Assembly (NCBI RefSeq): GCF_044704955.1
Contig: NC_091999.1
Coordinates: 58,218,001-58,282,000 of the forward strand
DNA from: Pristiophorus japonicus
Taxonomy: Eukaryota
Direction: 5' to 3'
Length of the DNA: 64,000 nt
Shown: in pieces, positions 9,761-63,608 of the stretch
Layout of the letters: every line of letters begins with the position of its first letter
Numbering within the stretch: the first letter of the stretch is position 1
Position numbers and translations under genes: made by a program
Notes under the pieces: generated by a model
Database searches by the model: none
Seen by the model: the letters and a program-made list of their open reading frames with translations, nothing else
Told to the model about the DNA's origin: nothing

Positions 9761-10119
9761 GAAGGTGTCCATCAGAACAAGGAAAATGCTTTACCACTGG
9801 ATTTATTGACGGTTCTGTTGGTGATTATCAAGGAGATCGCTTCATGTCCCACCACACAGGTGTGAGAGGCGCCGCTGGCCCACTCCTCGGCTGCAATGGA
9901 TAGCAGGCTGTACATGAAGAAGGAGCTGCTGCCGTTCTCCGCCATCACCTCGGTGTTCTGGTAGTTGCGGGAATCCACCGGCTTTCATTGACGGTCCATT
10001 TGACGAAGATTTTTCGGGGGGAGAACCTCTCACTAAGCAGGTGAGGCTGACCAACCTCTGAGCAGAGACTTCTGCTGAGGGCAGGAGGACAGACACGGCT
10101 GGTTCCCGCGGATCTTTCG
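9761..10119 (-). pseudogene. IGHM: IgM Cmu4 exon plus truncated secretory tail
   Basis: AG acceptor at 10120-21. Translates as KDPREPAVSVLLPSAE..LTCLVRG(F)SPRKIFVKW...[27 protein letters not shown]...[16 protein letters not shown]. Two 1-bp deletions, a deletion in the tail, and truncation by CR1. Confidence 0.93.
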
Positions 10120-11011
10120 CTGTAGAACAGTTACAACAAAGGCCAATGAACTGGATAGTTCCAGAGACAATGGGGGAATTTCAACCCAATACAGCGGGCG
10201 GGTTTTGGGCGTGGAGGTTGTTAAATTGGTAAAAATTAGAATCCCTACCTCAACTCGCCTACTTCCAGTTGTAATATTATATTTGAGTAATATATTTAAA
10301 TGATACTTGAATCCTCTATTTTAACCACCATTTGGTGTTTAACAGTCGTTGGTCCGGTTTGACACACTGTGTAAATCTCAGCAGTTACAGCAAGGTGGGG
10401 ATTGCTGCTCCCAGGTGGTAATTGCCCTTGCACCTACCTCCTGGATCCAGGATCCGCGACCTCCTCACTCGGCTTCCAATCCTCCCGTTTTCACTGGTGG
10501 CCTGTGAGACCAACGCCCACAACTCGCCTTCTTCATTTAAATTCAGCCAATTTCCGGTGGTTAGATGTGAGAGAAATGGACACCGCGTTGAATTTTGACG
10601 CTTTTCATTTTCCCCTCTGTTGCCTCTCTGGTTTTCCATCCCTTATCCGAGGGAACGTAATCTTTCTCTCTGAAATCTTGAAGCATTGGACTGGAAAATG
10701 ACAAAGAATTTAATGCACAGAACGAGGAGATTTGGCCAACTGGTCTATGCCGGTGGTTGTGATCCACACAAGCCTCCTCCGAGCCCACTTCATCTAAACC
10801 TAATAATATACCGTTCTATTTCTTTCTCGCTCATGGACTTATCCAGTTTCCCCTAAAATACATAATGTCAGGTCCCAGAGTGCTGAGATGGTGGAATTAC
10901 CAACCTGAATGATCAGAGTAGCCATTAAACACTTTATATAATCAATTGGCCCTTGCACACGCATCGAAATTGTCGCAGTGTCTTACTTATTGCAACAATC
11001 TCCCCGCTCAC

Positions 11012-11319
11012 CCTTTTCCTTGTGGATGGAATCTCTGAGAGGAGTCGGCATATCCTGATGGCTCACCACGCAGTAGAACTTATTCCCACTCAGCCAGTCT
11101 TGTGTCGAGATGTTTTAGTTGCTGATCACACTGTTGGGATCCTCTCCGGGTTGGACGGCAATCTCTGATTTCAAAGACTCGTTTTTTCGTGTCCAGGTCA
11201 CGGTGAGCCCATAAGGAGCGTTAGACACGACGCACGTTAAGGTCACCGTCGCCTCCAGTAAAACCTGTTCCAGTGACGGTGGGCGAAGAGTGATTTTTAA
11301 TCGCTGCATGGGACATCCA
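11012..11319 (-). pseudogene. IGHM: IgM Cmu3 exon
   Basis: AG/GT bounded, 308 nt (frameshift). [30 protein letters not shown]...W...[26 protein letters not shown], with an in-frame TAA. Confidence 0.93.
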
Positions 11320-12019
11320 CTGCGAAACAGGAATGAAAGTCAGGAAAAGCCGCATCTTCAGAATCAGGACACCAATAATTAGCCTTAACTCTTTCAAGGG
11401 GAATAACTCACTTTTGAGATATCAACCTCTCGCTATTGCTTGAACACCGTCGTTATGGAAGGACAATGAATTGGCAACGATTCCGGGGAATCTGGAATAT
11501 TTCCTGTGTATTTGAGCCAGAGCTACCTGTAATGGCCTGTGAAGCAAATACCTGGCGTAAAATGGGAATACATTGGGACGCAATTGTGATAGGCACTGAA
11601 TAGCGCTCTTCCTGAAATCCCTTGCTCCTTTACGCCCGTCTATAGATTCTTGCACCCAAGTGCATCTCCACTGGTTATAATAGCTGAAGCCCGAATATCC
11701 CCAAGTTCAAGAGGTCTACACCTGCATTACCCTGGTTCAAAACCAGTGTCAAATTAATTTCAGGATTTATGGGACAACAGGAAACAAAGTTAAGTTTCTA
11801 GTCTTTTGCTGCTATTTTTGTTGCGATGAAAATGTGCAGGAACCAGTCACATCCACCGTCAGAGGAGAAGTGCAAGGTCCGGAGAATGGAGTTGCAAGGA
11901 ATCTTTTGTGGTGGGGCATCATTTGTAATGATGTGAGGTAGTTTGTTAATATCTGTAATTACTGAACATTTATCATGTCTGGTGAGAGAGATTCAGAAAG
12001 CACTATGACCTCAGGGCAT

Positions 12020-12560
12020 TAATAGCAACAAAGGAATAGGAGAAGGTCATTCAGCCCATCCATCCTGTCCCGCCATCCAGTTAGATCATGGCTGATGAAC
12101 ACTCAACACCATCTTCACGCCTTGGTTATGTAACCCATGATAAACTTGCCGAACAAAAATCTATCAATTTCAGTTTTCAACTTTTCAATTGAAAGCAAGT
12201 GTCAGCAGCTTTTGGGGAGGGAAATCCCGAATTGCAATATTCTTCCTGTTAGAAAATCCTTTCTGACATCACCTCTGCACGGCCTAACTCTAATGTTAAG
12301 GTTTTGCTACTTGTTCTGGACTCTCCCATCAAACTAAATACATGTTTCTATATCTACTCGATACAATTCCATTTATCAACTTAAACACGTCAATTGGACC
12401 ATCTCTTAACGTTCTATTCTCACCAACTGATCATTTTACATTATTAGCCCCGGTATAATTCGGGTAAACCTGCAGTTTAGCACCTCCACGTATATCCTTC
12501 CTCAGGTGCGGAGCCTAGATTTGGGCTCAGTACTCTGAATAGGGTAGATGCCCATTCTTG
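12020..12560 (-). mobile_element. Old CR1 3' fragment
   Basis: Reverse complement of the CR1 3'UTR/ORF2 end (ggtcattcagccc...gatcatggctgat). Confidence 0.65.
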
Positions 12561-12734
12561 CAGTGGGTTCCTGGACAGTTAGCAGTGAAGGATTCCAGAC
12601 TCCTATTGCCATTCCGTATATGATCAGCTAACTCAGGATATACCTGAGACTAAGGACACTTCACTCACTGCCTGACACCAGAGCAAGGGGAAAGCTTCTT
12701 TGGCGAGGTTAATAAATCCTGAGCAATGAGGAAT

Positions 12735-13155
12735 CCTGAACCAAAAGATCGTGGGTTGAAGTCCCACTCCAGATATTTGATCACAATATGTAAGCTGAGT
12801 CTCTCAGTGCAGTACTGGGGGCGTGGTGCATTGTCGGAGGTGCCGTATTTCGGATCATGTGTTAAACCAAGAATCCGTCTAGCCTCTCAGGTGGAGGTAA
12901 AAGTTCCCCTGGAATTATTTCAATGAAAAGCAGAGGAGTTCTCCCTGGTGGCCTGGGAATATTAATCCCTCAAGAAATAACACTAAACAAAAAAAATGGT
13001 CGTTATCACACTGCTGTTTGTGGGAGCTTGTTGAGCACTAAATGACTGCCGCACTTAGTACATTACAACTGTGACCACATTTCACAACTTAATTCATTGC
13101 CTGGCAAGCGCTTTGGTTCAGTCTGTGGTCGCTGAAGGCGCTGTATAAAGTCAAA
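12735..13155 (+). mobile_element. DeuSINE (SacSINE1/AmnSINE-like) SINE
   Basis: Deu-domain-like core (gtgcagtactg...gtcggaggtgccgt...tcaggtggaggtaaaag...ctgtttgtgggagcttg) and an L2-like tail (gcgctgtataaa). Confidence 0.75.
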
Positions 13156-13273
13156 ATTGTATCACAAGAATACACAAACTGCATGATTGGGAATTAGGAA
13201 TATTCCTCTGCTTTCTACTAATTTCAATCAGCGCTCAGAATGGTCTGGAACCTCCCTCGATTGTGCCTCTTAC

Positions 13274-13580
13274 CCTATGATCTGCTGAAGTTACGGCTTT
13301 GTGTGCCCCCTTCATGAGTGACCTGGCAGGTGTAGACCGAGCCGGTGAACCATTCCCTGTCTGGGAGTGTCAGACGACTGGCCGTCAAAACGTTTCCGTT
13401 CATCTCAAAGGCGGGAGAGGTGATGAAGCCCGAATCCAGGAGTTGTCCACTCTTCAGCCAATTCACGGTCAGTGACTTTGGCCTTAATTCGATGATTGAA
13501 CACATGGCGCTTACATATCTGCTGCAGATGATTTGTTCAGTGGAACTTAGCAAGAGGAGAACAATTGGAGGAACGATGAT
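13274..13580 (-). pseudogene. IGHM: IgM Cmu2 exon
   Basis: PPIVLLL..SAMCSII..PKSLTVNWLKSGQLLDSGFITSP...SRLTLPDREWFTGSVYTCQVTHEG. TAG just before the GTAAG donor; no AG acceptor at the 5' end. Confidence 0.92.
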
Positions 13581-13712
13581 CCGTTCAGGACGTTCACGAG
13601 AAGGCATTTTATTGACATTGCTTGCAAAATAAATGATTAAGAAAGGCAAAGTCTCCTTATATTTTAACAAGTTCTTTGCTGTCAGATCCACACTAACCTG
13701 GCATTTGCAGAG

Positions 13713-14010
13713 AGCAAAATTGTGCGCAGTATACTCAGTGTAATATGCAGACCAGAACTGTGCATAATATTGTTAGTGCGATATGGGGACCAGAACCATG
13801 CACAGTATTCTAAGTGTGATATGGAGAGCAGAGCTGTGCATACTATTCTAAGTATGATATGGAGAACAGAACTTTACACAGTATTCTAAGTATGAGATGG
13901 AAACCAGAATTGTAAACTAAAACCTAAATGTGATAAGGAAACTAGAACTGTGCACAGTATTCTAAGTATTATATGGAGACCAGAACTATGCACAGTACTC
14001 TAAGTGTTGT
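13713..14010. repeat. 38-bp minisatellite (about 8 copies) derived from CR1 ORF2 sequence
   Basis: Unit accagaactgtgcacagtattctaagtgtgatatggag at 13751, 13789, 13827, 13865, 13903, 13941 and 13979. Confidence 0.85.
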
Positions 14011-14085
14011 CTAAACAAGTTTCTATACAAGTTGAACATAACTTCTCACCTTTTCACAGTTTGCCCTGTATCCCACATCATTAAC

Positions 14086-14384
14086 CTGACATTGTGATGT
14101 TCCACAGCGACCCACCACGTCGAACTTCGCAGCAGATTGTGCTGCTCCCCACCTCGGACTCGGTGATGGTTAATTGGCTGCTCAGGGTGTTGGTTCAATT
14201 CTTTTTGAGCAATGACGGGTAGGTCTTCAATCCAGTCGTGGTCGGCTCTTTATCTTCCTTCCAGAAAAGGCTGATGATGTCAGGGGAGTCGTCCATCACC
14301 AAACAGCCCTACGTGATGGAGCCATCGGTGCTGGGTTGTTCACAGGAGGAGAGCAGGGCGCAGAGGGTGGGGGAGACGGTGTTA
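14086..14384 (-). pseudogene. IGHM: IgM Cmu1 exon
   Basis: AG/GT bounded. VTPSP(P)[25 protein letters not shown]...[50 protein letters not shown], matching shark Cmu1. Two stops and a 1-bp deletion. Confidence 0.93.
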
Positions 14385-15239
14385 CTGGGAAGGAATGGCC
14401 CATTGAACAAGTTAGACTCTGTAATCCGTGCTTATAAAAGAAATAAACAAATCGAAATTTGACTGCAGAATAAACTAATTCCACCATTTCTCCATCAAAG
14501 GCTACACGGGCATTTGAGCTTCTGTCAGTTCTATCGTAAGCACCTGTCAATGCGCTGGTCAGGAACGCACCACTCTATCACCGAGCTCTATCACATTACA
14601 CAACAAGAACCTTTACACAACTCGTCAATAAAGAAGCCTTCATTGGATCGTGCAATAGCAGAACAGAGACGTGTTCCTGTTATTTCGGCCTGCATTTATT
14701 TCTCAATGAGCACCATTTTTTGTCCTTTATTTAATTGCAGTTTGGGGAAATTTGCTCTGTGCACATTGCCTGTGGTGTATCCCTACAAAACAACAGTGAC
14801 TGCACTTCAAAGGAGCAGCGGAATTCCTGCTTAGGACGTTAGCAAAATACCCTCCAAACTTGCCTACCACATAATTCAACAGGTAGCATTTCCATAGTCT
14901 AGTTTCTAAGATGCATGTTGTAAATGAACCGCGATTGAGACGAATGTCTTCCTTATTTTCTCAGCATTTGAGTGAGAGCGATGTCCTTCAGCGCACTGTG
15001 ATCTGAGCACTATTCCATTCAATTATATGCATGTCTCTTGAGTAGCCTGCTTCCTGCCACTCCATTCATAATCCGAATAAAATACCATTCCAAAATCCGG
15101 TTAATTTGAAGTTTACTTCTTAAATGGCCCGTTTCAATTCCCATTGTTGTTCTTGTTATATAACAATAACATGGACTTGGTTACAGGGAATACAATTTCG
15201 AAGTTCGAAAATGATGCAAAACCTGGCAACGTAGCCAAT

Positions 15240-16060
15240 AGTGAGCATGATAGCAGCAGACTCCATGAGAAGACAGATGGACCAGTGAAATAGGTTGGGA
15301 CATGGCAATTGCAATTAAATGCGAAACATTGAGAAGCGATGCACATTGGGTGGAAGTTGGAGAGGCAGTATAATCTAAATAGTATTGTTTTGAGGGGATG
15401 CACGAATAGAGAGATCTGGATGTACATATTCACAAATCTTTGAAGAGGGCAGGGCAAACTGGTAAGGCTGTTAGGAAAGCGTATGGGATACTTGACTTTG
15501 TAAATGGGGCATTGACTACAAAAACAAGGCGGTTATGCTAAGCTTACAGATCACGTGTTAGGCCTCAGCTGGACTATTGCGTACAATTTTGTCACCACAA
15601 TGTAGGAAGGATGTCAAGCCCTTGGGGAGCGTAGAGGGGAGACTTTTACCTGGATGATGCCAGGGATGGGGTCTTCAGTTGTGTGGAGAGATTGGAGAAG
15701 CTAGAATATTCTCCTTAGAGCAGAGGTTAAGAGGAGACCTAAGAGAGATATTCAACATTATGTCAGGTTTTGATATACTAAGTCGGGAGAAATTGTTCCG
15801 CTGGAAAGTAGGTGGGTAACCAAATGTCGCCGTTTTAAAATAATTGTGAAAAGATCAGAAGGTGAAATTAAGGTGATTTTTTTCACACAGAGCGTTGGTA
15901 ATTTCAGGAATGCACAAGGCAGTATCTCCAGTACGTCAGGAGGACTCATTTGCACGTTAAACTCTGGGGAGTTGGACTAAATTGGACAGCTCTTTCAAAG
16001 CCGGCACAGGCACGATGCCTGAATGGCCTCTTCCAATGCTGTGAGATGCTATCAGTCTAC
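15240..16060 (+). mobile_element. Degenerate CR1 3' part
   Basis: Decayed KA..ILG / RPQLDYCVQF / RGDL.E.F motifs and a CR1 3'UTR. Confidence 0.75.
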
Positions 16061-16689
16061 ACAAGTCAGTGGGAATAGTTCTTCTAGATTTCATGGAAGG
16101 AAACACTTCATATTTTGGACACCTATACCAGATCTATTTTTATTGTTCGTAATAATAAAAGAGGATATTTAAAATAAAGGGATCTTATAAATCTGACGCA
16201 AATTAGTCAATCACATGCTGTTAGAAAGGCTTAAATTCATTGCGAATGATGACTTATTGCAGGTTGACTCTCTCTCTTTAAATGTTTCACAGCATTGCAG
16301 CTCAGTTACTGTGTGCCTTGTGTTGTGACCCAGGCCAATAGCTGCATCTCGTCACAGTTTGTCCCTGCCTTTAACCTTCTCAGGAAGAATTGGACAACAT
16401 AATTTTTCTAAACATGAGGTCCCCATGATGGTTATTTGAAGTGGGAGTTTCGATATTCTCTATTTTAATTGTGGAAATAACTTGTAACCTCCCATCAGAT
16501 CAGAACAGGCGCTGCTTTCTGGAGCGTTATTCACTTCCTGAAACTGTTTGTTCTGAAAGTGAGCTGAGGATCAGGCCAATCATGTTCATTAGTAATCTGA
16601 TGCTCAAAATGTTCAAACATTAATAACTCATTAAAAATTGAGCAGTTTATCTGCTATCTGTTAGATGCTGATAACGGTGCCTAGAACAC

Positions 16690-17200
16690 TGCCTGACCAA
16701 GCACTCTCAGGTCAGATACAGCACGGATAAGAGAGCAAAGCTCCCGCTATGCTGCCATGTGGGTCAGGACAGGTATAGCAAGTGTTGCACACAGAGTAAT
16801 ATGTTATCTATACTATCCCGTCAAACATTCCCAGCTCAAGTACTGCAGAGATGTGCCACGAAATGTCTCCCCATAAAATGCGTTATCAAATTGACCGATT
16901 AATTAAGCACAATTATGACGAGTACAATGAAAAGCTTCCAAAACACTGTCCCATTAAAGCGCACCACCCCTCCAAAGCTCTGATTAAATAGAAGATCATT
17001 CTATATTGAAGGACCCAATTAAATTCCACGTCCTTGTAAAGAAAAGGTTAAAGACTGATTAAAGCTACCTCTGCAATGTCCCATCAAGCATTGGCAGATA
17101 AGATAACGCACGGGTTAGTTGCAGAGTAAAGCTGTCATATCAAACACTGTCAGGGCAGGTACAACCGGGTTAGAAACTGATTAAAACTCCTTCGACTGTC
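16690..17200. repeat. Degenerate ~66-bp minisatellite (same family as 29845-30185)
   Basis: Recurring gtcccatcaaacact...caggtacagcacgggttaga...gagtaaagct. Confidence 0.6.
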
Positions 17201-18697
17201 TCCCCGTGGTGTTTCGGAACTGCTCCTTCTGACTGTCACAATCTGGATTACTGATCTCATCTCTACGGCGACTCCTCAACCTTAAAGTCAATCTTTCCCG
17301 TTTCTCACATATACCAGTTTCTTAAATAACTGAATTAAGTGACACTGCCCGCAATACAGGATCACAACCCAGAAGGTTTACAACCCGTCAGGAGGACTCC
17401 TGATTCTCACCCAGTGAGCAGGCGCACAGAAACAGAACAGACACAAACGGTGCAAAAAGGGTGCTCCATGCAGAGAGAGACCAGTTCAATCTGTTAATTT
17501 CAATGAAGCTGTTTGATTTCTAGTTTATTTCTTTTCAATTTCCAACCACCTCAACGCTGCAGATTCTTTGAAATTAATCTGATATTAATTTGAGAGACTC
17601 TTCAACATCCAGCCATTTCCCCATCTCTGTCAACTATCTTGTAAACCGTGTAAAAATTAACTTCCCTGAAAGCAAGTATCTGGAAATAATTCACATTCCA
17701 CGGGAATTTGCTGCCTGTCACACGGGACTCGGTGACAGAGTAAGAATGTCACAATCCAGGAGACATATCCAGTGATACCTAATCAGCCACTGATTTTATA
17801 TATTTTCATCAGTAAATATAACCTGTAAAATCGTCGCGGAAAAACAGGAAATTAATTCACTAAAATCTGCAGCGACACCTTGTCGAACTCAGCACAGCCG
17901 AGTTATAAATGTATTGTTTTCTAAATTAATATATGAATGAATTAAACATTATCTCCAACCCTTGAAATTTTGCAATAATTGTAATACTGACCAGTATGCA
18001 ACACAATTGTAAGGGCTCGCTTATGTTTTAATGAATTAGCATTGATGTTACATTCTAATTTAATGTTCATGTTAGCTGAATATTGAAAATAATCTGAGTG
18101 CCAGTCTGGCCCTTCCTCCTCAGAAGCATACCTACCTGGAACTTTTGAAATTAAATTAATGTGCTTGAATTTCAGCCATACAAATACAAGTAATTATTAA
18201 TAATTCTAAAACCTTTTCTGCCTGATAACTTGTGATATATTATGGTTTACTTAAAATACCATAACAATTAATCAATATTACAATATTAAGCAGCATATTA
18301 ATACATAACTACTCAGAAATATACCTTATTTTTACTTAAATGGAATCAAAATTGAATAATTGACAATAATCAGGCAGTTCTACTAATGTCCCGCTCTCGA
18401 CCGACACCTTTTTAAACTCTGCATGTTTCTAATGTAGCATAAACTGCGTCTATTCGCAGAGAACATTTCACATGATGGATTTGGGGGTGGTCTAATTTAA
18501 ATAGTTCTCTGTCCAGCCGGGGTCACAACTCCGATGGGCTGTAAACCGCTTGTTTACTAATGCTGGAATCTCGAGCTGAAATATTCTCCTCAATCTTAAA
18601 CCCCAAAAATGGTTTTATTAATTAAAATCCATCCTTGCGTTTTGCAGTCAGTAGCAGAGCCTCCGCTACTTAATAACACAGACAATCTTTTAAAGTT

Positions 18698-18780
18698 CAT
18701 AGAGACATAGAAAATAGCTGCAGGAGTAGGCCATTCGGCCCTTCGCGCCTGCACCGCCATTCAATGAGTTCATGGCTGAA
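18698..18780 (-). mobile_element. CR1 3'-terminal fragment
   Basis: catagagacatagaaaatag...ggccattcggccc...ccgccattcaatgag. Confidence 0.75.
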
Positions 18781-19599
18781 TACTCCAGTTATTCACAAAA
18801 TGCCCGTAAGTTAATGATTAAATATATTCTGCTACTTCTTGAAAATAGTTTCCAGAATGGTCAGTGTAAAACTAGAGGATAACAATTCATTCAGACCATC
18901 TGGGGCACTGAAACTGAATGAGCAAATGGAGGAGAGACATTGTTCATCAATTTAATATTAATAAGAATTAAACATAGCTCTCAGATATGATTTGTGCTTT
19001 GTCTACCGTTCTATTCCGCATACAGCAGCGTTTTGGGAGATAGGATTTTGTTTTAAATTCAAAATAAGATGAACCTTTTGTAAGTAAATTAATCTGCTTG
19101 AATTTCAATGGATTATTTGCTGTCTCCAGCCATACGCAGTCGGAACCTGCCTTGAATTTCAATATAATTACATGAACAATTCTTTGACTGCCAGCGACGC
19201 CTGTCTCTCAGCTTTTGTTCTTGCAAAGTGTTCAAGATTAACTTAGTGATAATTCTATCAAACAACACACAATATTGATTCAATAACAAATTTCTGCTAC
19301 ACAGTGAGAATGTCATACCCCGGCAGATATATTAAATTGATAAAATGGAATTTGCAACACGGCTTTAAGTTATAATTAATTGCACTCAGTCATTCATCTG
19401 TGTAAACAAGAGGTAGCAAGTAATTGAACTCCCGACTCAAACTGAACACAGCGGTGGAATCAGTATGTTGTTAATGAAATAATTGCAGGCATAATTAATA
19501 ACTGTATCCAGCCTCTAAAAGTTTCTGCTTCCCTTAATGGTGCCCAGTGTAGAGCAGGATTTTTGAAGGCGAATAATATTAAGTAAATGAACATTGGAC

Positions 19600-20830
19600 T
19601 TATAGCATATTTGAATAACATTCAGAGATATTATTGCATTATAATCGGTTGGTTAATAGTAATTTAATCCAACTACAACCTGAATAAGTTAATTATGTAG
19701 ATGGCAACTAGTTACATTTCACATATTAATATACCAGCATCGTCAACATTGATTAATAGTTGAATATATAATTATCACTTCAATAATTGTGATGTTAAAA
19801 TACCTTTCAATAATTTCTGATGTGTAAACCCGTCCTGTTCTTTGCCTACCGCCTGTTTTCAAACAGTTTCAAAATACATATCGTGTTTGGATTCGATCAG
19901 AAACCTGCTGCTGTCACCGATATTAAACATTGTAGAAACGCCAAACAGTTTCACAAATTCTAGGTATTCTGAGTAACACAGGCACAAACTCTCCTCAGCA
20001 GATCAACACTAAATCACATCGCTGAGGGGCGGAATCCCTCGACAGAACCTTTCATGGAGCAGATCCGTAATTCTATAAACCCTTTCAGCAGAATCAAATG
20101 TATCATTGCAAAAAATCTCATTACACAATCATCAAACCCGCCTAACACTGAAATAACGAAAGATTGAATTCAACAGAAATATAAAATACTGACAGAGAAT
20201 TGTGATTGGACGGATCATGTTAAATACATTAATTTTGATATTATAGCGTATTTCAATAATAATCGGTGATATTACTACGTTATAATAATGTTAATTTAAA
20301 TGTGTTCCAGCTGGAAATATGTTAATTTGTCAGTTCATAATTACAACTCATGTATTGAATCTGATCATTCGGGAACATTCGGTCAGTAGATGACAATGTA
20401 ATTTTCATGAAAAAACTTAAAAGACCTTAAGGTTATTTACTGACCTCTAAGCTTTCTGTTTTGTGCCTACAATGTTCTTTTAAACACATTCAAACACAAT
20501 GTTTGCATTCGATCAGAAAAACTCCAGCAATCAGAGGTCACCAAGATTAAACATTGCAGAAACGTCAAACAGTGTAATAATCATAAGGTATTTAAAGTAA
20601 CCTCGACACACAGTCTCGTCAGCAAATAAATACCAAATCACATCAACAACATTTTCTGTGGAGAAACAGTTGAATTCTATAATCACTTTGCAGCAGAATC
20701 ACATTGATAATTGCAAAAAAATCTCAAAACAAAATCCACCACATCCAAGTTTCAGTGAACGAAATAATTATTAAAATAAACAGAAATATAAAATAAAGAC
20801 ACAAATACAAGTGTTACTGAATCAGTGAAT
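19600..20830. repeat. Old tandem duplication (unit about 620 bp) at the start of the J-Cmu intron
   Basis: Collinear matches, e.g. tttgcctac/gtgcctac, attcgatcagaaa, attaaacattg.agaaacg.caaacag, attgcaaaaaatctca, aacagaaatataaaata. Confidence 0.75.
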
Positions 20831-20839
20831 GCTCCTTAC

Positions 20840-20889
20840 CTGCAGTCACCGTCACCATGGTTCCTTGTCCCCAGTAGCCAATTGCGTAA
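20840..20889 (-). pseudogene. IGHJ: IgH J segment, probably pre-joined to D2 (DJ)
   Basis: YAIGYWGQGTMVTVTA followed by a GTAAG donor; preceded by a 12-spacer RSS. Confidence 0.92.
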
Positions 20890-20917
20890 CAGAGTGAGAC
20901 ACGTTGTGTCAAATACT
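20890..20917 (+). other. 12-bp-spacer RSS 5' of the (D)J, degenerate
   Basis: Heptamer CAGAGTG (20890-96, critical CAC broken), 12 bp, nonamer TCAAATACT (6/9 to ACAAAAACC). No nonamer at 22-23 bp spacing. Confidence 0.7.
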
Positions 20918-21238
20918 CCGGCGGACTGTTAACTGTAAAATACAGAGATTAAATTCCACCCAGCTCTAAAAACCCGATTCCGACTATCGTAAGAGTGAAT
21001 CAGCGAGATATTTCATTTTGTACCGTTCATTATATTTACAAAAATGATTGGAATACTTCTGAAGCATCTGTGCATGTTCAACATGGCAATCAATAGTAAT
21101 AAAGAAGAAAACTGTTATACATTTAAATATATATATATATATATATAACTTATTTCTAATTATTTTTATTTAAGCCTCAGTTCCTTCGACGCTCCTGGCG
21201 TGGTAATGGTCGCAGGTTTGAGCAAACTCCCTGTCTGG

Positions 21239-21276
21239 GGTTTTTGTATGGAGAGCTCGCTCTGTATTGCACCGTG
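21239..21276 (-). other. 22-bp-spacer RSS 3' of V(D)
   Basis: CACGGTG + 22 bp + perfect ACAAAAACC. Confidence 0.92.
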
Positions 21277-21596
21277 ACCCACTCCCGTAGTCCTTCCTTG
21301 CACAGTAATAGATGGCGGTGTCTTCGCTCCTCATGTTCTTCATGTCCAACGTGAAGATGTTGTTTGAAGTGTCTTTGGATGCAGTAAATCGGCTCTCAAT
21401 CCCTGGGACGTTATTGTTGCTCGCTGGAGTGTAGTAGTAAACCAGCCAATCCAGCCCCTGTCCGGGAACCTGGCGGACCCAGTTCATGCCATAGCCGCTA
21501 AGATCGAACCTGCTGGTTTGCAGGTCAGTCGCAGGGAGCCTCAGGAAATCCTGGTCTTTGCCTCGGGCTGAGTCAACACCACATCCGACTGGACAC
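21277..21596 (-). pseudogene. IGHV: IgM VH exon, apparently joined to D1 (VD)
   Basis: [20 protein letters not shown] (1-bp deletion) ..[15 protein letters not shown]...[32 protein letters not shown], then KDYGSG before the RSS. Confidence 0.93.
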
Positions 21597-21724
21597 CTGT
21601 AAAAATAATCAAAATACCCCGAGGATCAATCCTCGAGAAATGATTCCTGACTCTGTAAAATTCCATAGAGAGACTATCACTGAGACAGTAACAATGAGAG
21701 AATTGGACAATAAAAACGACTCAC

Positions 21725-21770
21725 GGGAAAGTAAAGCCAGCAACAAAACGAAAGCAATCGCCGACCTCAT
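21725..21770 (-). pseudogene. IGHV: VH leader exon
   Basis: MRSAIAFVLLLALLS plus phase-1 GTGAG donor, 46 nt. Confidence 0.9.
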
Positions 21771-21935
21771 CCTCCTGGCAATGTGTGGTGACTGGTTCCG
21801 GCAAGAACTCACTGAGCAAACCCACTCCCAGACTGTTGTATTGCGCTCCCAGTGGCCGGCAGCTAAATACCCGGGAGATGGGGGCGAGGTTAAAGGCGCC
21901 ACCCATTGATTCCCTGATCGAAGCGGTTTCTGTAT

Positions 21936-21945
21936 CCACGTCACT
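21936..21945 (-). promoter_or_regulatory. CRE-like decamer in the VH promoter
   Basis: AGTGACGTGG about 170 bp upstream of the ATG, with no octamer nearby. Shark VH promoters are reported to use a TCR-like decamer instead of the octamer. Confidence 0.5.
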
Positions 21946-23485
21946 CTTTCCACATCACCAACAGAATGAACTCACATCTGGACTGTAAATTAAATCCCTT
22001 TATTCCTCACTCTTTCACAGGGGATGTAAATCTTTGAGATTGAATTACATTATCAGGATCTAAACACACGGCCAGTTTGTGCTTTTACATCTCCCGCTAT
22101 CTATCCATGCAACTGTACCAGTAAAGTATCCCCTATAATCTGAATTGATATCACTCTATGTACCCGAGTGCGGTAGATGGGTAATGTGATTCTATTTACA
22201 GTGTACTTGGCTGAAGCTACACTTTTGTTCTGGAGATGAGATCATACTCCTCACATTATACAATTGTCTCTCACTGCATTTCACTAACTGCCCCTGAGTC
22301 TGTGACTCTAAGACAGCCGTTTAGCTGTAAAATTTAGCTGTAAAATAAGTCCGCTTGTCTGATGATTAAGGAGTGAGTTGACGAAGACACATAAGAAAGT
22401 GGGGCCTGCCCGCTTCAGACCAGCGTTTTATGAGAGAAGCTGGTGAATCAGAATCGATAATGTGATCAGCAAACCTCGACATCCAAATCCTTGCAGCTAA
22501 CTTTAATAGCGACCGAATGTGTAACAGACACGGGTAACAGGAACACGGTCTATCAGGACATAGTGATATGTTACAGAATATCACAGGAATAAATGCTTCA
22601 TCTCCAGCAGAAACAGATCACAATCTGGGCCTTTCACCACCCACTGGTAGCCGGGCTGTGAGAGGGCTTGTTCAGCGATCCAAATCAGTTCAAATTACAC
22701 TGCACACTGCGCGGCTACTAATCACGAATAATGGAGACATTAGTTTAGACCAGACGCAAAATTCTGTGAGAATATTAAAGAAGTGCAGCTGGCACTTCTC
22801 TGTGAGAATATTCAAGGCACTTCAACCTGTTTTAGTTACTTTGCGAATCCCACTCCTCTCATTACAGTGTGGGGTGAGGACATTAAACCTCTCTCCAGCA
22901 CTTCATGCTGTACTGAATAAATCGACTGAAAGACTTACCATGGTCTTTATTTGGAAATAGTTTTCATTAGGTACCGTGTGGATCAATTCATTATTTTCCG
23001 ATCCTGTTTTGTAATATTGTGAGCATGCAATTTACGTAAAATCATTCTTGAGATGTTATACTATGTAAAATGTTTCTTATTTTAAAAGTTCGACTGAATA
23101 ATGTAATATTTAAATAGTTAAATACCATCTTTCTCTCATTCTTGTTCACGCTAATCTGACCCGCACAATATTTGGCAGTAACCCAACCGACTGCCGTCAG
23201 CGAGCCTCGAACACCAGTGTCATTTTCAGGAAGCATCTGGGGTTCTGTGCACTCCATCAAAGGTCAGTTTTCTCTCTACTGACCGCATGCCTGGAAGCCA
23301 ACTTCAAAACATTTACGTTGTGAAAAGACCTATTTATATACACATCTACCCAATAACAGAACTGGTGTCAAGTAAAAATGTTTTCGTTGTGTAAATGTGT
23401 GTAACTATTCACATATTGCAGGAAAGGAAATATATCCAAAGTCTCAGACATCATGTCATTAGCAGCAGTCAGCTGGAGTATCAGT

Positions 23486-23670
23486 NNNNNNNNNNNNNNN
23501 NNNNNNNNNNNNNNNNNNNNNNNNNNNNNNNNNNNNNNNNNNNNNNNNNNNNNNNNNNNNNNNNNNNNNNNNNNNNNNNNNNNNNNNNNNNNNNNNNNNN
23601 NNNNNNNNNNNNNNNNNNNNNNNNNNNNNNNNNNNNNNNNNNNNNNNNNNNNNNNNNNNNNNNNNNNNNN
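23486..23670. other. Assembly gap
   Basis: Run of N. Confidence 1.
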
Positions 23671-24285
23671 CCACAAAGGTCAGTGCTGGGTCCACTATTG
23701 TTCACAACTTATATTAACAATTTAGATTTTGGAGTCAAACACACAATATCTAAATTTTACCAATGCACTTGGGGCGGGCGGGTCGGCGTGTAAATACTGT
23801 GGAACACTGCAACTAATTAAAAGAATATACGAACTGACTAATTAATTTCAACACAGACTAGTATGAGTTATTACAGTTTGGTGAGAAAAATAAGGAGGTC
23901 ACTTATCACGTTTAAAATAAGAATCTATGTGGGATGGAGGAACACAGGTCTCTGAGAATGCAAATATACACATCACTAAAGGGAGCGACGCAGGTTAATA
24001 ATGCTATAAAAAGAACACCTACACTCGGGTTTATTTCTAGAGGGATAGAATTGAAACGTGCAATAGTTATGCTAAACATGGTTAGACCACACTTGACGTA
24101 CTTTGTATAATTGACCAATCCCCCGCCATTTCCCTGAAGCCCTGCATATGTTTCCATTCAGATATGTGGATAGTGCAGGGAAGGGGAGTTGAGGTAGAAG
24201 AGCAGCCATGATCCCGTTGAATGACGGAACAGGCTCGCTGAATCATATGGCCTACTCCTGCTCCAATTCTTATGTTCTTATGTTG
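23671..24285 (+). mobile_element. Degenerate CR1 RT/3' fragment
   Basis: PQRSVLGPLLFTTYINNLD; CR1 3' end ttcttatgttcttatg. Confidence 0.8.
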
Positions 24286-24329
24286 TGACTTCCGAGGAAA
24301 TATGGACATTAGATACTCAATCTCTCCTG

Positions 24330-24825
24330 GTAGAACAGCCTCACGCCCCCGCCGCCGTCCCAGGAATCAGATCAGTCTGATGAACCTGAGATGCACTCCC
24401 TCCAAGGCAAGTGCATCCTTCCTTAGATAAGGAGAACAAAACTGTACACGATACACCAGGTGTAGTCTCAGCAGAGACCTATATAAGTGCATGAAGGCTT
24501 CTTTTTTCTAATACTCCAATCCCTTTGCAATAAAATGCTGCTTACCATTTGCTTTCCTAATAGCTCACTTTGGCTCCATGTTAGCTTTCTGTGATTCGTG
24601 TACAAGGCCATCCAGGTCTTTCTGAATAACAATATTACCCAGTTTCTCAGCATTCAAAAAATTTTCTGCGTCTCTATTTGTCCTACCAAAGTGCGTAACT
24701 TCACACTTCTCCACATTATACTCAATCTGCCATGTTCATGCCCACTCACTTAACCTGTCAATATCCCTTTGCAGCCTCCTTACTTCTTCCTCACTGTTTA
24801 CTGTCCCATCTACCTTTGTATTGTA
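24330..24825 (-). mobile_element. CR1 ORF2 fragment
   Basis: Reverse complement of the WAxxWQ..YNVEKCEV.HFG and LHLVYRVQFCSPYLRK-like segments. Confidence 0.75.
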
Positions 24826-28520: not shown

Positions 28521-28679
28521 ATAGAAGTACAGATAGATGGATAGAAGTACGAATCGACGGACGGACGGACAGACGAATGGACCGACCGACCGAACGAAAG
28601 ACAGATAGACAGTCAGACAGACGTGAAGATTCGCATGGCTGGAATGTTACCATCAAATTATTCCAGGCATTCTATATGT

Positions 28680-48872: not shown

Positions 48873-49536
48873 TGAGCTTTCGCCGATTTATATACCTAGA
48901 TGTGAGATCAGTCGCTCTGAACCTATCAATTCTGAGATTATTCTCATGTTGTGTTTCTGTTGTCATGTGCCACATCACCTGTAAATGGAAATGTGGCACC
49001 ATAGACACTCCAGTCTCGCTGGGGTTATAGTTGTGTGTATGTAGAATATATAGAGTTTGTTTGGTTATAAAGATCAGAAGTCAACAGAATCGAGAACAGT
49101 TTGGAGGCGTGTTAGCTCCAAACAAGCGAGAAATCTTACACATACCCTTTGATGCTCCTTAAATTGCATTAACATGAATCCTCCTGCTTACTGAGTATTC
49201 TCTTGTAGTATCCCAATGGTCTCATCTAAACCGTGGTCGGCTCTATCAAATAATACATTCTCATAACACCAACTTATTAATACTGACGATTGTATTTTAA
49301 GTTACTTTCCTGTTACATTATACTGTATCCTACAGTTGACAACTAATTATCGGGAAAAATGTCGAGATACAGGTGACACTGGAAACGCACTAATAATTTT
49401 TGGGGTATCTTTTGTAAACGGTGTTCTGCTGTGGTTGGATGAAGTCTCAAAATGTCACAGAATAACTGTCACACTTATGTGTTTGCTGAAACTTTGACTG
49501 GTAGCTTCCCAATGTTAACTTTCTTCTTAGTCTCAG

Positions 49537-50444
49537 TTAATTTAGTGGCAATTGTGATCCTGTCCCAAGGAAGGTGCGGTCTCTCCAGATGTACCACTCG
49601 GTACCTTGTGTCCATGGCGGTGACGGATCTTCTGGTCATTATCACAGCTGTGATATTCAATCGGATTTGTGGCATTTATTTTCCAGGTAGTTTTTTGTCC
49701 CTGACCCCGGCGTATACTCTTAGTCCTGTGGTAATTTATGCAGCCACGGAGAGTTCGGTCTTGTTAACGGTCGCGTTCACCTTTGATCGATTTGTAGCCA
49801 TTTGTTGCCAGAAGCTGAAAACAAATTATTGCACCGAGAAAACAGCGGCTGTGGTTATAGGAACGGTCTGTTTACTGAGCTGTTTAAAAAGCGTTCCTTG
49901 GTACTTTATATACGAACCGCTCTATATAATCAACAAGGTCCCGTAGTTTTGAAATATTAAATCAAGCTTCTACACTTCACTCGTGTGGATAGCGTATGAT
50001 TGGTTTGCTCGTCTTTTCAACACAGGCCTCCCATTCTTCCTGATCTTGCTGCTGAATGCTCTGACCGTCAGACACATTGTAGCAGCCAACAGAGCCCGCA
50101 GGAGGCTCCGGACCCACATCAATGGAAAGAACGATAGTGACCCAGAGATGGAAAGCCGGAGAAAGTCCATCATTTTACTCTTCACCGTCTCGGGCAGTTT
50201 AATCCTGTTATGGATGACGTATGTTGTAGATTTCTTGTATGTGAAAATTACAAACGGATCTTATTTCGCAGGTTCCAATTTCAATGAACCCAATTTCATT
50301 CGCCAGGTAGGTAGAAACATGCTCCAGCTCCTAAGTTGCTGCACCAACACGTGTATTTATACAGTGACACAGAAAAAATTTAGGGAGAAGTTAAAGCATG
50401 CGGCAAAATATTTTTGCAATCGAATTGTAAATTTAGTAAACTAG
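49537..50444 (+). pseudogene. GPR139-like class A orphan GPCR, main coding exon with two nonsense codons
   Basis: Acceptor ctcag at 49535-36. NLVAIVILSQGRCGLSRCTTRYLVSMAVTDLLV, FTFDRFVAICC, LPFFLILLLNALTVRHI, RRKSIILL, LLSCCTNTCIY. TAG TTT TGA at 49944-52, in frame between the two ORF-track halves. First exon not identified. Confidence 0.85.
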
Positions 50445-53040: not shown

Positions 53041-53715
53041 TAACAATGGCCTAGAAATCCCAGTCGAGGTCTTCCCGAAGGCGATCGACTAAAAAATGTT
53101 AAAAGTTGCACAAATACCTGCAATTGCTGCGACTACCATCAATTCAGGCCTAAGGCCTCCACGCTGTGCAGCAGAGGCGTGCACGTCTCAACGTCCATAA
53201 GCTTGAGCTGGAATCACATGGCCCTGGGCAGCCAATCAAGGTACAATATTTTCTCATTTAAAATAACGGGAACTCCATAAGTTGGATTTCCGGTTATTTT
53301 GATTGAGAAACACACCCGCCAAACATCAAAACAAAAAGAAAAAAAAGAAAAAATACACCACATATTTTATATTTATTTAAATTAAAGCTATTTTTGTCCA
53401 ATAAAAAAATCTTTCCAATTTTAAAAAAAGTTTTTTTTATTTCCAGTTTAAAATAAACTTACCTCAGTGGGCAGGGCTTTTAACAAAAAATGTATTTTAA
53501 ATTTTATTTTTCTATGAGTTTCATGATTTAAAACTCTTATGCCTATAAAAGAAGGCTTTGCGCCTGCTTTTATTAGCTTCAAGTTTTCAGGACATTTGCA
53601 ATCTTGCCGATGCGAATGTGCTGGCTGCTGAGATGTGGAGGATCTGTCAAGTTGGAGCTTGACAGATGGGAAAAGACGACTTTCAACCATGCACATTGTG
53701 CACAGAGCACATTGT

Positions 53716-54015
53716 ACCAAGTGAACAGTAATAAATGACGCTGTCAGACACCTGGCAATATTGAATGTTTAAAGGAACCGTTCCTATGGCATTGTCTAAT
53801 GTAACTACAGCAGACACTTCCCAAAGGCAGTTACATTATTTCTAGATCGAGCTTTGCAGTATTTATTGCGGATTTGCCTCTGGCTGCTGAATGCATGAGA
53901 AAAAATGAAGGGTGAGGAGGTGATGTCGGATAATTACACTTCAAAGTGAAACTTTGCCCGTCACCCAAGGTGTTACTCGGTGGGTCCTGAAACAAGGACA
54001 CTATTTCCTCACTGG
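53716..54015 (-). pseudogene. TCR alpha/delta-type V segment, heavily decayed
   Basis: QDPPSNTLGDGQSFTLKCNY...IQQPEANPQ*IL...TVPLNIQYCQVSDSVIYYCSL. Frameshifts and stops; RSS not recognisable because a repeat abuts it. Confidence 0.75.
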
Positions 54016-54403
54016 ACTTGATAAGGAACATTAGCAAGTAAAAGGCATCATGTTATCAGAATAAACAACACTCAAGCAATGGAGGCTGGACCCACACGTG
54101 CAATTTCATAAATGCCAGTAACACATACACACAGCTCAATGCATTGCGCAAAGCCTACCCTCAGTGTAAACAGGAGAGCATCTGGAAACAAATACCTGAA
54201 TGGCACCTCGGGAACAGATCTCTGCAAACCATAAGTGGAAAACAAAGCTTCTAGCACATATTGACAGGTGCTGATGGGTTTTATAACATTGTCAACCTTT
54301 CATTGTCCATTCAAAAAAACAGGACGAATCAGCGTCAGAAGACAGGATTGAAATCATGATACTGAGTTTGGAGTGAAGATCTTTATCAAGAAGCACAATC
54401 ATG

Positions 54404-54446
<43 letters not shown>

Positions 54447-55734: not shown

Positions 55735-55788
<54 letters not shown>

Positions 55789-56273: not shown

Positions 56274-56340
<67 letters not shown>

Positions 56341-58389: not shown

Positions 58390-58611
58390 NNNNNNNNNNN
58401 NNNNNNNNNNNNNNNNNNNNNNNNNNNNNNNNNNNNNNNNNNNNNNNNNNNNNNNNNNNNNNNNNNNNNNNNNNNNNNNNNNNNNNNNNNNNNNNNNNNN
58501 NNNNNNNNNNNNNNNNNNNNNNNNNNNNNNNNNNNNNNNNNNNNNNNNNNNNNNNNNNNNNNNNNNNNNNNNNNNNNNNNNNNNNNNNNNNNNNNNNNNN
58601 NNNNNNNNNNN
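58390..58611. other. Assembly gap
   Basis: Run of N. Confidence 1.
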
Positions 58612-60228: not shown

Positions 60229-60229
60229 T

Positions 60230-60399
60230 ACACAAGAACATAAGAAATAGCAACAGGAGGAGGCCACCTGGCCCCACAAGCCTACTCCACAATATATAAG
60301 ATCATGGTTGATTTGATCATGGACTCAGCTCCCTGCCTGCTCCCCCTGACCCTTTTATTTCCTTATCGATCAAAAATCTGTCAAATTCTGTGTTAAATG

Positions 60400-60430
<31 letters not shown>

Positions 60431-60512
60431 AGGCAGTCCCTTGGAATCGAGAAAGACTTGCTTCCACTCCGGAAGTGAGTTCTTTGGTGGCTGAACAGTC
60501 CATACGAGAGCC
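60230..60512 (-). mobile_element. Stacked CR1 3' end (60230-60395) and RTE 3' end with (CAT)n tail (60403-60512)
   Basis: caagaacataagaaatag...; catcatcat..aggcagtcccttggaatcgag...ttgcttccac. Confidence 0.65.
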
Positions 60513-61289: not shown

Positions 61290-62580
61290 ATGTTACTCCA
61301 TTTGTAATCCAGAGTCCTGGGCGAAGCAGTTTATTGCACGAATTAAAATGGTACCTGCGTAGTTTGGGAATTTAAATTCCGATTTTTAAAAAATAAATGA
61401 GAGTCTGGTATCAGAAAAGTGACCATAAAGTGATCGGCTTTGGCAAAAACCCCAACGGGTACACTAATGTCCCGTCAGGGAAAGAAATCAGCCGTCCTTA
61501 CCCCAAAAGTGACTCCAGTCCCACACTCAACGTGATTTAGCTCTTTGAAATGGCCCTGCATGCCCCCCAGTTGTATCAAACGCTTGAAAGGAGCAGAACT
61601 GCAGTGGTTCGAAAAGCAGATGGCTCACCAGCAATTTCTCAAGTGGAAACCAAGGGATGGGCAATAAATGCTGACATGCCAGTGAAATCCATATCCCTAT
61701 AATTAATAACGAAAGGAAAGGTTTAAGATGCAGTTGCCTAATTTCAGACTGTTGAAACCGACAACCCTCCACGACCTGTCTGCTCCTTCAATTCTGGCCA
61801 CTGTGCAATCCCAATTTAATCGCTCCAAAATTAGCCGCCGTGTCTTCACCTGCCTCGGCCCTAAACTCTGGAATTCCACCCCTAAATATCTGCCCTAATA
61901 TCTCCGTATGTAGCTAGGTGGCAAATGTTATAAGAACACAAGAAATAGAAGCAGTATTAGGCCACCTGGCTCCTTGAGCCTGTTGCGTCATTCAACAAGA
62001 TCATGGCTGATCGGATCATGGACTCAGCTCCACTTCCCTGCGCTCTCCCCATGACCATTTATTCCCTTATCGCTCAAAAATCTGTCTATGTTACCTCTTT
62101 AACAGGGTCAATTTGTAAAGCGAGAGCAGTGAAGGAAACAATTAATGTTGTTCTGGCAGCTGTGCGGGAGCTTCCCATTAAAGGAGCTGTTTGCTGACCT
62201 TTACCACTAAGCATAGCCGATAAAAGGGGGATGTAGACGGGAAGCGAGCCATGAAGGATTTGAACACAATGATGTGGTAAATTAAAAGAACTCCTTTAAC
62301 CTCAATAAAATGGAGAGTCACTGGCAGGTTTGAGCAGAATGCGATGGCGCGAACACCAACAGGTAAATCATAATACAAAAGCAAAATACTGCGGATGATA
62401 GAATCTGACATAAAAAATAAAATGCTGGAAATCTCAGAGGGCCAGGCAGCATCTGTGGAGAGAGAAACAGAGTTGACCTTTCAGGTAGATGAACCTTCAT
62501 CAGAACTGGCGATTGTTCCGAATGAAAAGATTCTTATGGAGCACTGAAAGGGGGAGGGGAAGAAAGAATAAAAGAGAAAC
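61290..62580. mobile_element. Cluster of old SINE, L2, CR1 and Penelope-like fragments
   Basis: SINE-like tail gggcaataaatgctg (61660), L2 3'UTR (61780-61925), CR1 end (61930-62090), Penelope-like aaaagcaaaatactgcggatg...cagcatctgtggagagag (62377-62510). Confidence 0.55.
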
Positions 62581-63143
62581 TAGGTAAATCATATTGCGTC
62601 TGAAGAATTTTCAGCATCAGTCCTAAGCTGACCTTTCATAGTTTGAACTTGCGTCCTCAGGTTCTACTTCCGCGGTTTCATTTAAAGTAATAATCAGAGT
62701 TAACTTTTTTATGCACTTCGCGATCTTGATAACCTGTTGGAGTAATTGCAGTCTGGAACTCGGGTGATGGTTGGAACATGCTAGTGTCCAATTATTTCAT
62801 CATTCAGCTGCGAAACTAATCATTACAACGCCGTTACTGAGCAGTGAAACACGTTGCAGACGCCGCAGCATGAATTAACACTTTTGTCTGCATCTGATGA
62901 TAATTTCAAAGAAAGGAGGAAGGGATCATTGGGTGAAGAGATAGAGAGAGAGAGAGACAGAGAGAGAGAGAAAGAGAGAGAGTGAGAGAGACTGTGTATT
63001 TAGATATCTGCCGGTCTATCTGGTTAGTTATCTACCCAGCTATATATTATCGAGCGTTTTCGTTTTATTGTTTGATTTCTATTGTAACATCCCAATGCCG
63101 GGTCTTAGAGCTGATTCAGTGAGAGGTAATTAAATTCCATTGC

Positions 63144-63182
63144 TTGTTTTGTACGGACTGACTGCGCCCGTGCAGCAGTGTG
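63144..63182 (-). other. 23-bp-spacer RSS of the TCR V segment
   Basis: CACACTG + 23 bp + ACAAAACAA. Confidence 0.85.
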
Positions 63183-63608
63183 GGGGTCAGCGCAGAGTGA
63201 TGCACGGCAGATTCAGAGACAAGAGCCCCGGATATATTTAAAGGAACTGTTTACTAGTCTTGGTCCAAAGCAGCAGAAAATCATCCTGGGAAATCAGGAG
63301 ACCGCTTGCCGTACATGTTCAGTAAATATCTCGGATCTTCCCCGGGATATTGGAAATACCAGAAGAGAATTGGGGCAGTGTACGTTGCTGAGTAATTACC
63401 GTTCAGTTTTAAGGTCTGACCCTCCTGAATCATTACTTCAGACGGATGCTGGGACACTGAATCTTCGCCACTCCTTCCTGGAACAAAATACAGAATGTGT
63501 TAAAAGTCTGATAGTAAATATAACCCATGGAACACAAACTGACCCTTTAAACATAGACTCACCGGGCAGCATGGCAATTATTATCAGTAGTGAACATGGG
63601 GAACACAT
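63183..63608 (-). pseudogene. TCR alpha/delta V pseudogene (leader 63563-63608, V exon 63183-63477)
   Basis: Leader MCSPCSLLIIIAMLP|GTGAG; AG acceptor. EDSVSQHPSEVMIQEGQTLKLNGNYSAT..LFWYFQYPGEDPRYLL...G*FSAALDQD**TVPLNISGALVSESAVHHSAL. Both Cys lost, 3 stops. Confidence 0.88.

What the first reader, a model, noticed from the sequence alone, without database searches (positions are those of the whole stretch)
9761..63608. IgM minilocus co-oriented with, and downstream of, TCR alpha/delta V segments
Seen: two TCR alpha/delta-like V pseudogenes (53.7 kb and 63.2 kb, the latter with a 23-RSS) and a complete V-J-Cmu1-4 cluster, all on the minus strand within 55 kb. Established: shark TCR delta chains can use IgHV segments, and Ig-like V segments or defective Ig clusters have been reported in the nurse shark TCR alpha/delta locus. 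Inference: this is a relic of an Ig-TCR hybrid region. The VD with its near-perfect 22-RSS could once have joined 12-RSS TCR D/J delta segments, and upstream 23-RSS TCR Vs are 12/23-compatible with the 12-RSS DJ (TCRV-Cmu chimeras by deletion). All segments here are now defective.
Basis: partly seen in the sequence, partly recalled or inferred. Interest (0 to 1): 0.75.

Follow-up and report, generated by a model that had tools for sequence, protein, structure and literature searches.

The report
Dead shark antibody beside T-cell pseudogenes
A broken, partly pre-joined shark antibody gene lies 32-41 kb downstream of two broken T-cell-receptor V genes, a mixing already described in other sharks, and it is most likely a leftover of block duplication rather than a working or once-working antibody/T-cell hybrid gene.

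Summary
The minus strand carries an IgM minilocus in the germline-joined VD-DJ form and two TCR alpha/delta-type V pseudogenes 32 and 41 kb upstream; every coding part is broken. The arrangement is in print: Flajnik et al. 2025 (PMC12227049) report TCR alpha/delta V exons between IgH clusters in four elasmobranchs. In their great white table, 6 of 9 IgM clusters have a co-oriented TCR V within 100 kb upstream and 0 of 9 have one downstream. A Pristiophorus japonicus gene model carries the same two germline junctions at roughly 5-10% DNA distance, so the joined cluster was copied after joining. The gap at 23486 could not be bridged. The scan noted the same motif on other DNA of this genome (e1-9098443, e1-9845814). 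Worth keeping: the one-sided 'TCR V upstream of IgM' polarity, and RSS-like sites in the J-C intron. Interest 0.2.

The parts
63563..63608 (-). TCR V pseudogene TV1, leader exon
   Evidence: ATG and GT donor
63183..63477 (-). TV1 V exon, TCR alpha/delta type; three stops, both core cysteines lost, no frameshift
63144..63182 (-). TV1 23-RSS, CACACTG / ACAAAACAA (nonamer 3 mismatches)
   Evidence: read-through tail matches relatives
53710..54020 (-). TCR V pseudogene TV2; three frame changes, a stop, heptamer TACAATG, no nonamer; 31% identical to TV1
21725..21770 (-). IgM VH leader exon
21296..21596 (-). VH exon; stop near 21541 and a frameshift near 21518
21277..21295 (-). D1 remnant fused to VH (germline VD join)
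21239..21276 (-). D1 3' 22-RSS, CACGGTG / ACAAAAACC
20890..20917 (-). D2 5' 12-RSS; reads CAGAGTG from the coding end, predicted dead
20840..20889 (-). D2 remnant fused to JH (germline DJ join), GT donor intact
20485..20737 (-). three RSS-like sites with intact CAC in the J-C intron, inside a unit of about 350 bp that has a decayed second copy at 19790-20170
14086..14384 (-). Cmu1; frameshift near 14368, two stops
13274..13620 (-). Cmu2; stop at 13277-13275; the evident acceptor is out of frame with the Ig domain
11012..11319 (-). Cmu3; frameshift near 11293 and a stop near 11116
9760..10119 (-). Cmu4 and secretory tail; two frameshifts, one lost codon, tail cut off by a repeat
49452..50444 (+). 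single-exon class A GPCR pseudogene (two stops at 49944-49952) lying between the IgM cluster and the TCR V genes
23486..23670 (.). assembly gap, 185 N, not bridged
58390..58611 (.). assembly gap, 222 N, inside one CT-rich satellite that continues on both sides

Best explanation
This is a dead IgM minilocus, already joined as VD-DJ in the germline, with two dead TCR alpha/delta-type V genes upstream, and it likely arose by segmental duplication of a 'TCR V plus IgM cluster' block from the shark antigen receptor complex, with no hybrid product predicted now. Steps: (1, shown) V is fused to D1 and D2 to JH, which leaves one 22/12 pair 386 bp apart. (2, shown) The same two junctions sit in a second gene model about 5-10% away in DNA, so joining came first and copying second. 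(3, inferred) The TCR V genes travelled in the same block, because IgM clusters in great white have TCR V genes on their upstream side only. (4, shown for the lesions, inferred for their effect) Stops and frameshifts hit V, Cmu1-4 and both TCR V genes, and the 12-RSS lost CAC, so RAG would not complete VD-to-DJ or TCR V-to-DJ joining, and no reading frame would survive if it did.
For: [quoted passage not shown] Table S1 recount: 6 of 9 great white IgM clusters have a co-oriented plain TCR V 28-89 kb upstream, 0 of 9 have any TCR-type V within 100 kb downstream, up to 7.4 Mb from the TCR alpha C model; three of the six are labelled 'IgM pseudo?'. VD-DJ is a listed germline form (PMC5192425 passage). 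JH-to-Cmu1 distance is 6.46 kb against 6.3-6.8 kb in nurse shark. P0159 shares both junctions and 42 of 50 residues of translated intron, 109 of 118 of the Cmu2 exon, 60 of 68 of V-D. A catshark model (P0006) also reads from V through a D into the same spacer-nonamer tail. Contigs of run X6 join Cmu3 to Cmu4 and, like X5, carry intact letters where the window is broken, so intact Cmu relatives exist elsewhere.
Against: No second copy of the whole block (TCR V plus this VD-DJ cluster) was seen; P0159 covers only the Ig part and could be an orthologue if the window is from a related species. The great white table lists gene models only, so unannotated pseudogenes are missed, and the catshark and stingray sheets show no such clean polarity on reading (not counted). 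At several lesion sites (9984, 10068, 11116, 13277) every laid DNA contig carries the intact letter, so those lesions were not seen independently of the assembly (contigs drop variants). The gap at 23486 separates the cluster from both TCR V genes and is unbridged. Shark IgH loci are open to RAG in thymocytes (PMC2435157), which keeps rare hybrid joins possible in an intact ancestor.
Confidence: 0.62

Rival explanations
1. The cluster sits inside the true TCR alpha/delta V array, and while intact its VD used the 22-RSS to join 12-RSS TCR delta D or J segments, as IgM and IgW V do in nurse shark.
For: IgM/IgW V to TCR delta trans-rearrangement is established (PMC12227049, PMC5931798, PMC6795676 passages). 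The 22-RSS is near consensus and its local partner is dead, which frees it. Scan notes place TCR V segments and a NAR-TCR cassette on the same piece (unchecked).
Against: Those notes lie 38.6 and 47.8 Mb away. The VH has a stop and a frameshift, so the RSS is not being kept for a product. No TCR D/J/C in the window. The VH has its own DJ and Cmu, unlike a TAILV.
Confidence: 0.17
2. Upstream TCR V genes joined by deletion to the 12-RSS DJ and gave TCR V-JH-Cmu chains while the block was intact.
For: Orientation and spacers are formally compatible: TV1 23-RSS and D2 12-RSS face each other 42.3 kb apart. The one-sided polarity in great white puts TCR V genes where deletional joining could work.
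Against: The 12-RSS lacks CAC; a better 22-RSS lies 386 bp from it; rearrangement is confined to the minilocus in nurse shark; TV1 has lost both cysteines and TV2 its RSS. Searches listed no paper reporting such a chain, but the primary J Immunol and Immunogenetics papers were not readable.
Confidence: 0.05
3. The neighbourhood is an assembly artefact: the gap at 23486 joins an IgM cluster to unrelated TCR V-bearing DNA.
For: The right flank is a retroelement fragment, the left flank is cluster-specific DNA, and no listed contig bridges the gap.
Against: The gap has a non-round size (185 N), which suggests an estimated distance and not a Hi-C join (inference from common practice). The same spacing and polarity occur in another shark's assembly.
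Confidence: 0.08
4. TCR V orphans and the IgM cluster arrived separately in a repeat-rich region that collects dead multigene-family copies.
For: A broken GPCR and many retroelements lie between them; TV1 and TV2 are only 31% alike and TV2 looks more decayed.
Against: Does not explain 6 upstream against 0 downstream in great white, nor the scan's similar note on another piece (e1-9098443, unchecked).
Confidence: 0.08

Closest known systems
Elasmobranch antigen receptor complex (AgRC), Flajnik et al. 2025, PMC12227049 (seen: first two of eight parts of the text, passages, all of Table S1; the supplementary PDF was not read)
   Same: IgM clusters, some pseudogenes, with TCR alpha/delta V exons tens of kb away; e.g. 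great white 'IgM pseudo?' at 14.94 Mb with co-oriented TCR V 28 and 54 kb upstream.
   Different: A species not among the four tabulated; linkage to TRAC/TRDC, PSMB5 and UrIg2 is untested here. The parts I read do not remark on the one-sided polarity.
Partially germline-joined shark IgM clusters (VD-J, VD-DJ, VDJ); PMC5192425 and PMC2193156 (passages)
   Same: V fused to D1, D2 fused to JH, one RSS pair left about 400 bp apart, own Cmu exons.
   Different: Here the remaining 12-RSS and all exons are broken.
IgHV-TCR delta trans-rearrangement and TAILV (named in PMC12227049; primary papers PMC3222143, PMC7039070, PMC7909615 not held, so details are recalled)
   Same: An IgH V with a 22/23-type RSS in TCR V-bearing DNA.
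   Different: This VH has its own DJ and Cmu1-4; no TCR delta D/J/C nearby; no chimeric read seen.
NAR-TCR cassette
   Same: Ig-like and TCR V elements in one block of the same region type.
   Different: No NAR V or NAR D/J in the window; the order is reversed (TCR V upstream of the Ig V).

Membership tests
Shark IgM minilocus | VH, two D, one JH within about 2 kb, about 400 bp apart | tested here: met
   VD and DJ 386 bp apart; leader to JH 0.93 kb because two joins are already made (definition)
Shark IgM minilocus | JH 6.3-6.8 kb from Cmu1; four Cmu exons and a secretory tail | tested here: met
   6.46 kb; four C1-type exons; tail truncated
Shark IgM minilocus | membrane exons | tested here: inconclusive
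   motif scan found none in the window; they may lie before base 1
Germline-joined VD-DJ cluster | no RSS between V and D1 or between D2 and JH; joins inherited, not somatic | tested here: met
   sequence; same junctions in P0159
TCR alpha/delta V (TV1) | split leader, V-set exon, 3' 23-RSS, nearest relatives TCR alpha/delta | tested here: met
   (25.7 bits, just under Pfam's cut-off of 26)
TCR alpha/delta V (TV2) | same features | tested here: inconclusive
   groups away from VH with 100/100 support and scores E 1e-15 to TV1-like proteins against 0.12 to shark VH; references were chosen by likeness to TV1; RSS lost; PDB uninformative
Working 12/23 pair (TCR V to DJ) | both heptamers start with CAC (rule recalled from RAG biochemistry) | tested here: not met
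   D2 signal reads CAGAGTG
TAILV | IgH-like V belonging to the TCR delta locus without its own Ig J and C (definition partly recalled) | tested here: not met
   own DJ and Cmu1-4
AgRC | TCR alpha/delta V exons between IgH clusters | tested here: met
   subject to the gap at 23486
AgRC | linkage to TRAC/TRDC, PSMB5, UrIg2 | not testable with these tools
   no whole genome held; only unchecked scan notes of TCR elements on the same piece
NAR-TCR | NAR V with D/J upstream of a supporting V delta | tested here: not met
   tblastn of 155 V-type proteins and motif scans found three V regions only; no NAR V was among the named queries, so a very decayed one could be missed

The most novel reading that the evidence does not exclude
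Shark IgM clusters spread as a fixed cassette with TCR alpha/delta V genes on their upstream side, and in intact copies those V genes join by deletion to the cluster's 12-RSS D2-JH, making the unreported reverse chimera (TCR V on an IgM constant region); this window would be a fossil of that cassette.
Probability: 0.06. Interest if true: 0.7.

Novelty: new member of a known kind. Interest (0 to 1): 0.2.

Why it matters
As it stands, little: one more dead IgM cluster with TCR V genes beside it, in a region type published in 2025. It does suggest a cheap test. If TCR V genes sit on the upstream side of IgM clusters across sharks and share their duplication history, the antigen receptor complex grew by copying mixed TCR V-IgM blocks. 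That would explain how TCR V genes came to lie megabases from their constant region. If such V genes were ever found joined to JH-Cmu, the known one-way Ig-to-TCR exchange would be two-way.

Tried and rejected
No whole genome is held, so flanks could not be annotated. Run search: 4 DNA holders of one sample at 0.62-0.66 of the words; no RNA holder listed. Laying 4 of the 7 runs on 9600-25600: no listed piece spans the gap at 23486, which proves nothing; X5 and X6 have next to no cover on the VD-DJ region, which says nothing on expression; summed depth is not a copy number and was not used as one. The TCR V side has no read or contig data in this report. Word-indexed protein search with TV1 found nothing. 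PDB searches with TV2 pieces were uninformative. Relic JH segments behind the intronic RSS-like sites: rejected, 111-390 of 500 shuffles scored as well. Somatic origin of the joins: rejected, because P0159 has the same junctions. Co-orientation as evidence by itself: rejected (1 in 4; 13 of 21 great white TCR V rows are on plus). Scan look-ups near the window, by sequence, in relatives and by words gave nothing. Papers not held: PMC3222143, PMC7909615, PMC7039070, PMC3360817; they may already describe the polarity, the intronic RSS-like repeats or reverse chimeras. The supplementary PDF of PMC12227049 and the elephant shark supplementary note were not read.
Full report
Observation. The window is cartilaginous-fish DNA; the closest named protein is a Pristiophorus japonicus Ig heavy chain gene model, P0159, 93% identical to Cmu2. 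No whole genome is held. On the minus strand lie a VH with leader (ATG 21770), fused without an RSS to a D, then CACGGTG-22-ACAAAAACC (21276-21239). 386 bp further comes a 12-spacer signal (20917-20890), a D remnant fused to JH (donor after 20840), and 6.46 kb further Cmu1 to Cmu4 with a secretory tail cut by a repeat near 9760. So the cluster is VD-DJ. The VH is 62-68% identical to horn shark, bamboo shark and catshark VH. Two more V exons lie 32 and 41 kb upstream of the VH start. TV1 (63608-63183) matches mostly TCR alpha chains in the PDB (best E 1e-11), an Atlas cluster named TVA4 at 0.97, and chondrichthyan V domains at about 50%. TV2 (about 54020-53717), read with X at three breaks, scores E 1e-15 against TV1-like proteins and 0.12 against shark VH; in a tree of 46 rows both fall apart from VH with 100/100 support. 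The 40 reference rows were picked by likeness to TV1 and held no IgL, beta or gamma V, so TV2's label is likely, not proven. tblastn with 155 proteins and a motif scan found no other V in the window.

State of the parts. VH: a stop and a frameshift. Cmu1: a frameshift and two stops. Cmu2: a stop before the donor. Cmu3: a frameshift and a stop. Cmu4: two frameshifts and a lost codon. TV1: three stops, both cysteines lost, nonamer with 3 mismatches. TV2: no usable RSS. The D2 signal reads CAGAGTG from the coding end; by the recalled rule that RAG needs CAC it is predicted dead. Against full certainty: at 9984, 10068, 11116 and 13277 all laid DNA contigs of runs X1 and X3 carry the intact letter; at 14368 only 164 of 389 depth units in X1 do. 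Contigs drop variants and the holders share only 0.62-0.66 of the words, so single lesions are unverified; their number and kind across seven exons make a pseudogene the plain reading. Run X6 has contigs that join Cmu3 to Cmu4 and carry intact letters, so intact relatives exist elsewhere.

History. P0159 reads CARKDYG at the V-D junction and LCYAxGYWGQG at the D-J junction, as the window does, and matches 42 of 50 residues of translated intron, which a simulation puts at roughly 5-10% DNA distance. The joins are therefore inherited and older than the split of the two copies (a paralogue, or an orthologue if the window is from a related species). That model also skips Cmu1 and Cmu3, which suggests it is broken too (inference). 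VD-DJ is a listed germline form in sharks (PMC5192425, passage; PMC2193156, passages), and a somatic intermediate in nurse shark (PMC2435157, passages).

Context. Flajnik et al. [quoted passage not shown] I recounted the great white sheet (39 rows: IgM, TCR V, NAR-TCR and the TCR alpha C model; IgW, IgL, UrIg2 and psmb5 rows left out; one IgM merged with its V row; the lone IgM V not counted as a cluster). 6 of 9 IgM clusters have a co-oriented plain TCR V within 100 kb upstream (nearest co-oriented V at 28, 41, 61, 64, 81 and 89 kb) and 0 of 9 have any TCR-type V within 100 kb downstream. In one of the six the nearest V is opposite. The window's 32 and 41 kb fit this range. The table holds gene models only, and the clusters are not independent. 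I read this as block duplication; that step is inferred. Unchecked scan notes place a NAR-TCR cassette 47.8 Mb and broken Ig and TCR V segments 38.6 Mb before the window on the same piece, and a pre-joined IgM beside TCR V pseudogenes on another piece. My reading was already this one.

The chimera idea. For: IgM/IgW V to TCR delta joins are established; IgH loci are open to RAG in thymocytes; the 22-RSS is the best signal in the window; TV1's 23-RSS faces the 12-spacer signal 42.3 kb away. Against: the 22-RSS is what D1 leaves in any VD-DJ cluster (recalled layout of shark D signals) and has a partner 386 bp away; that partner lacks CAC; nurse shark IgH rearranges only within a minilocus; no TCR D, J or C is in the window; no frame survives. 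Searches listed no paper that, by title or abstract start, reports a TCR V on an IgM constant region, but four primary papers were not held, so this is not a claim of absence from print.

Gaps. The gap at 58390 lies within one CT-rich satellite present on both sides. The gap at 23486 has cluster-specific DNA on the left and a retroelement fragment on the right; no listed contig spans it. It remains open, and both TCR V genes lie beyond it.

Side observation. In the J-C intron, 20485-20737, three RSS-like sites with intact CAC face like a D/J 5' signal (22, 12 and 13 or 23 spacers). A relaxed scan of 20401-20835 gave 6 overlapping hits on that strand and 0 on the other, against a mean of 0.3 in 2000 resamples, none reaching 6; the region was chosen after seeing the hits. 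No J homology follows them. They lie in a unit with a decayed second copy, 79% column identity. I recall repeats with cryptic RSS in nurse shark J-C introns (Zhu 2012) but could not read that paper; searches gave nothing on it.

Verdict. Observation confirmed; interpretation partly supported; a new member of a known kind; interest 0.2. The boldest open reading, a TCR V-IgM cassette able to give reverse chimeras, has about 6% probability and would deserve 0.7.

Noticed in passing
window 20485-20737 and 19790-20170: Three RSS-like sites with intact CAC in the J-Cmu intron, all facing one way, within a unit of about 350 bp that is duplicated at 79% identity; no J homology behind them. Joining to them would delete JH. 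May be the known switch-region repeats (recalled, not checked).
   Followed up: partly
window 49452-50444 (+): Single-exon class A GPCR pseudogene with two stops (Pfam 7tm_1); probably of the shark GPR139/142-like expansion (label from scan note e1-9183729 and recall, not tested).
   Followed up: partly
window 11135-11579: DNA contigs of X1 and X3 skip 445 bases that include the first half of Cmu3: another broken copy or allele of this cluster.
   Followed up: no
window 21936-21945 (-): CRE-like element about 170 bp upstream of the VH ATG and no octamer nearby (nearest 23958-23965), as recalled for shark VH promoters, which resemble TCR promoters.
   Followed up: no
window 529-3836 and 5750-9065: Two 89% identical copies of a GC-rich non-LTR retroelement (zinc-knuckle ORF1, endonuclease/RT ORF2 pieces) just downstream of Cmu4, where membrane exons might be expected.
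   Followed up: no
window 25900-29600: Long 27-bp-type tandem array with an inverted arm (about 28680-29600 against 25900-28500).
   Followed up: no
PMC12227049 Table S1, great white sheet: TCR V gene models lie upstream of 6 of 9 IgM clusters and downstream of none within 100 kb; not remarked on in the parts of the text I read.
   Followed up: partly
window 53692-53715 (-): A 9-base stretch that includes part of the TV2 heptamer is repeated 16 bases later, leaving a CACAATG copy without a nonamer.
   Followed up: no
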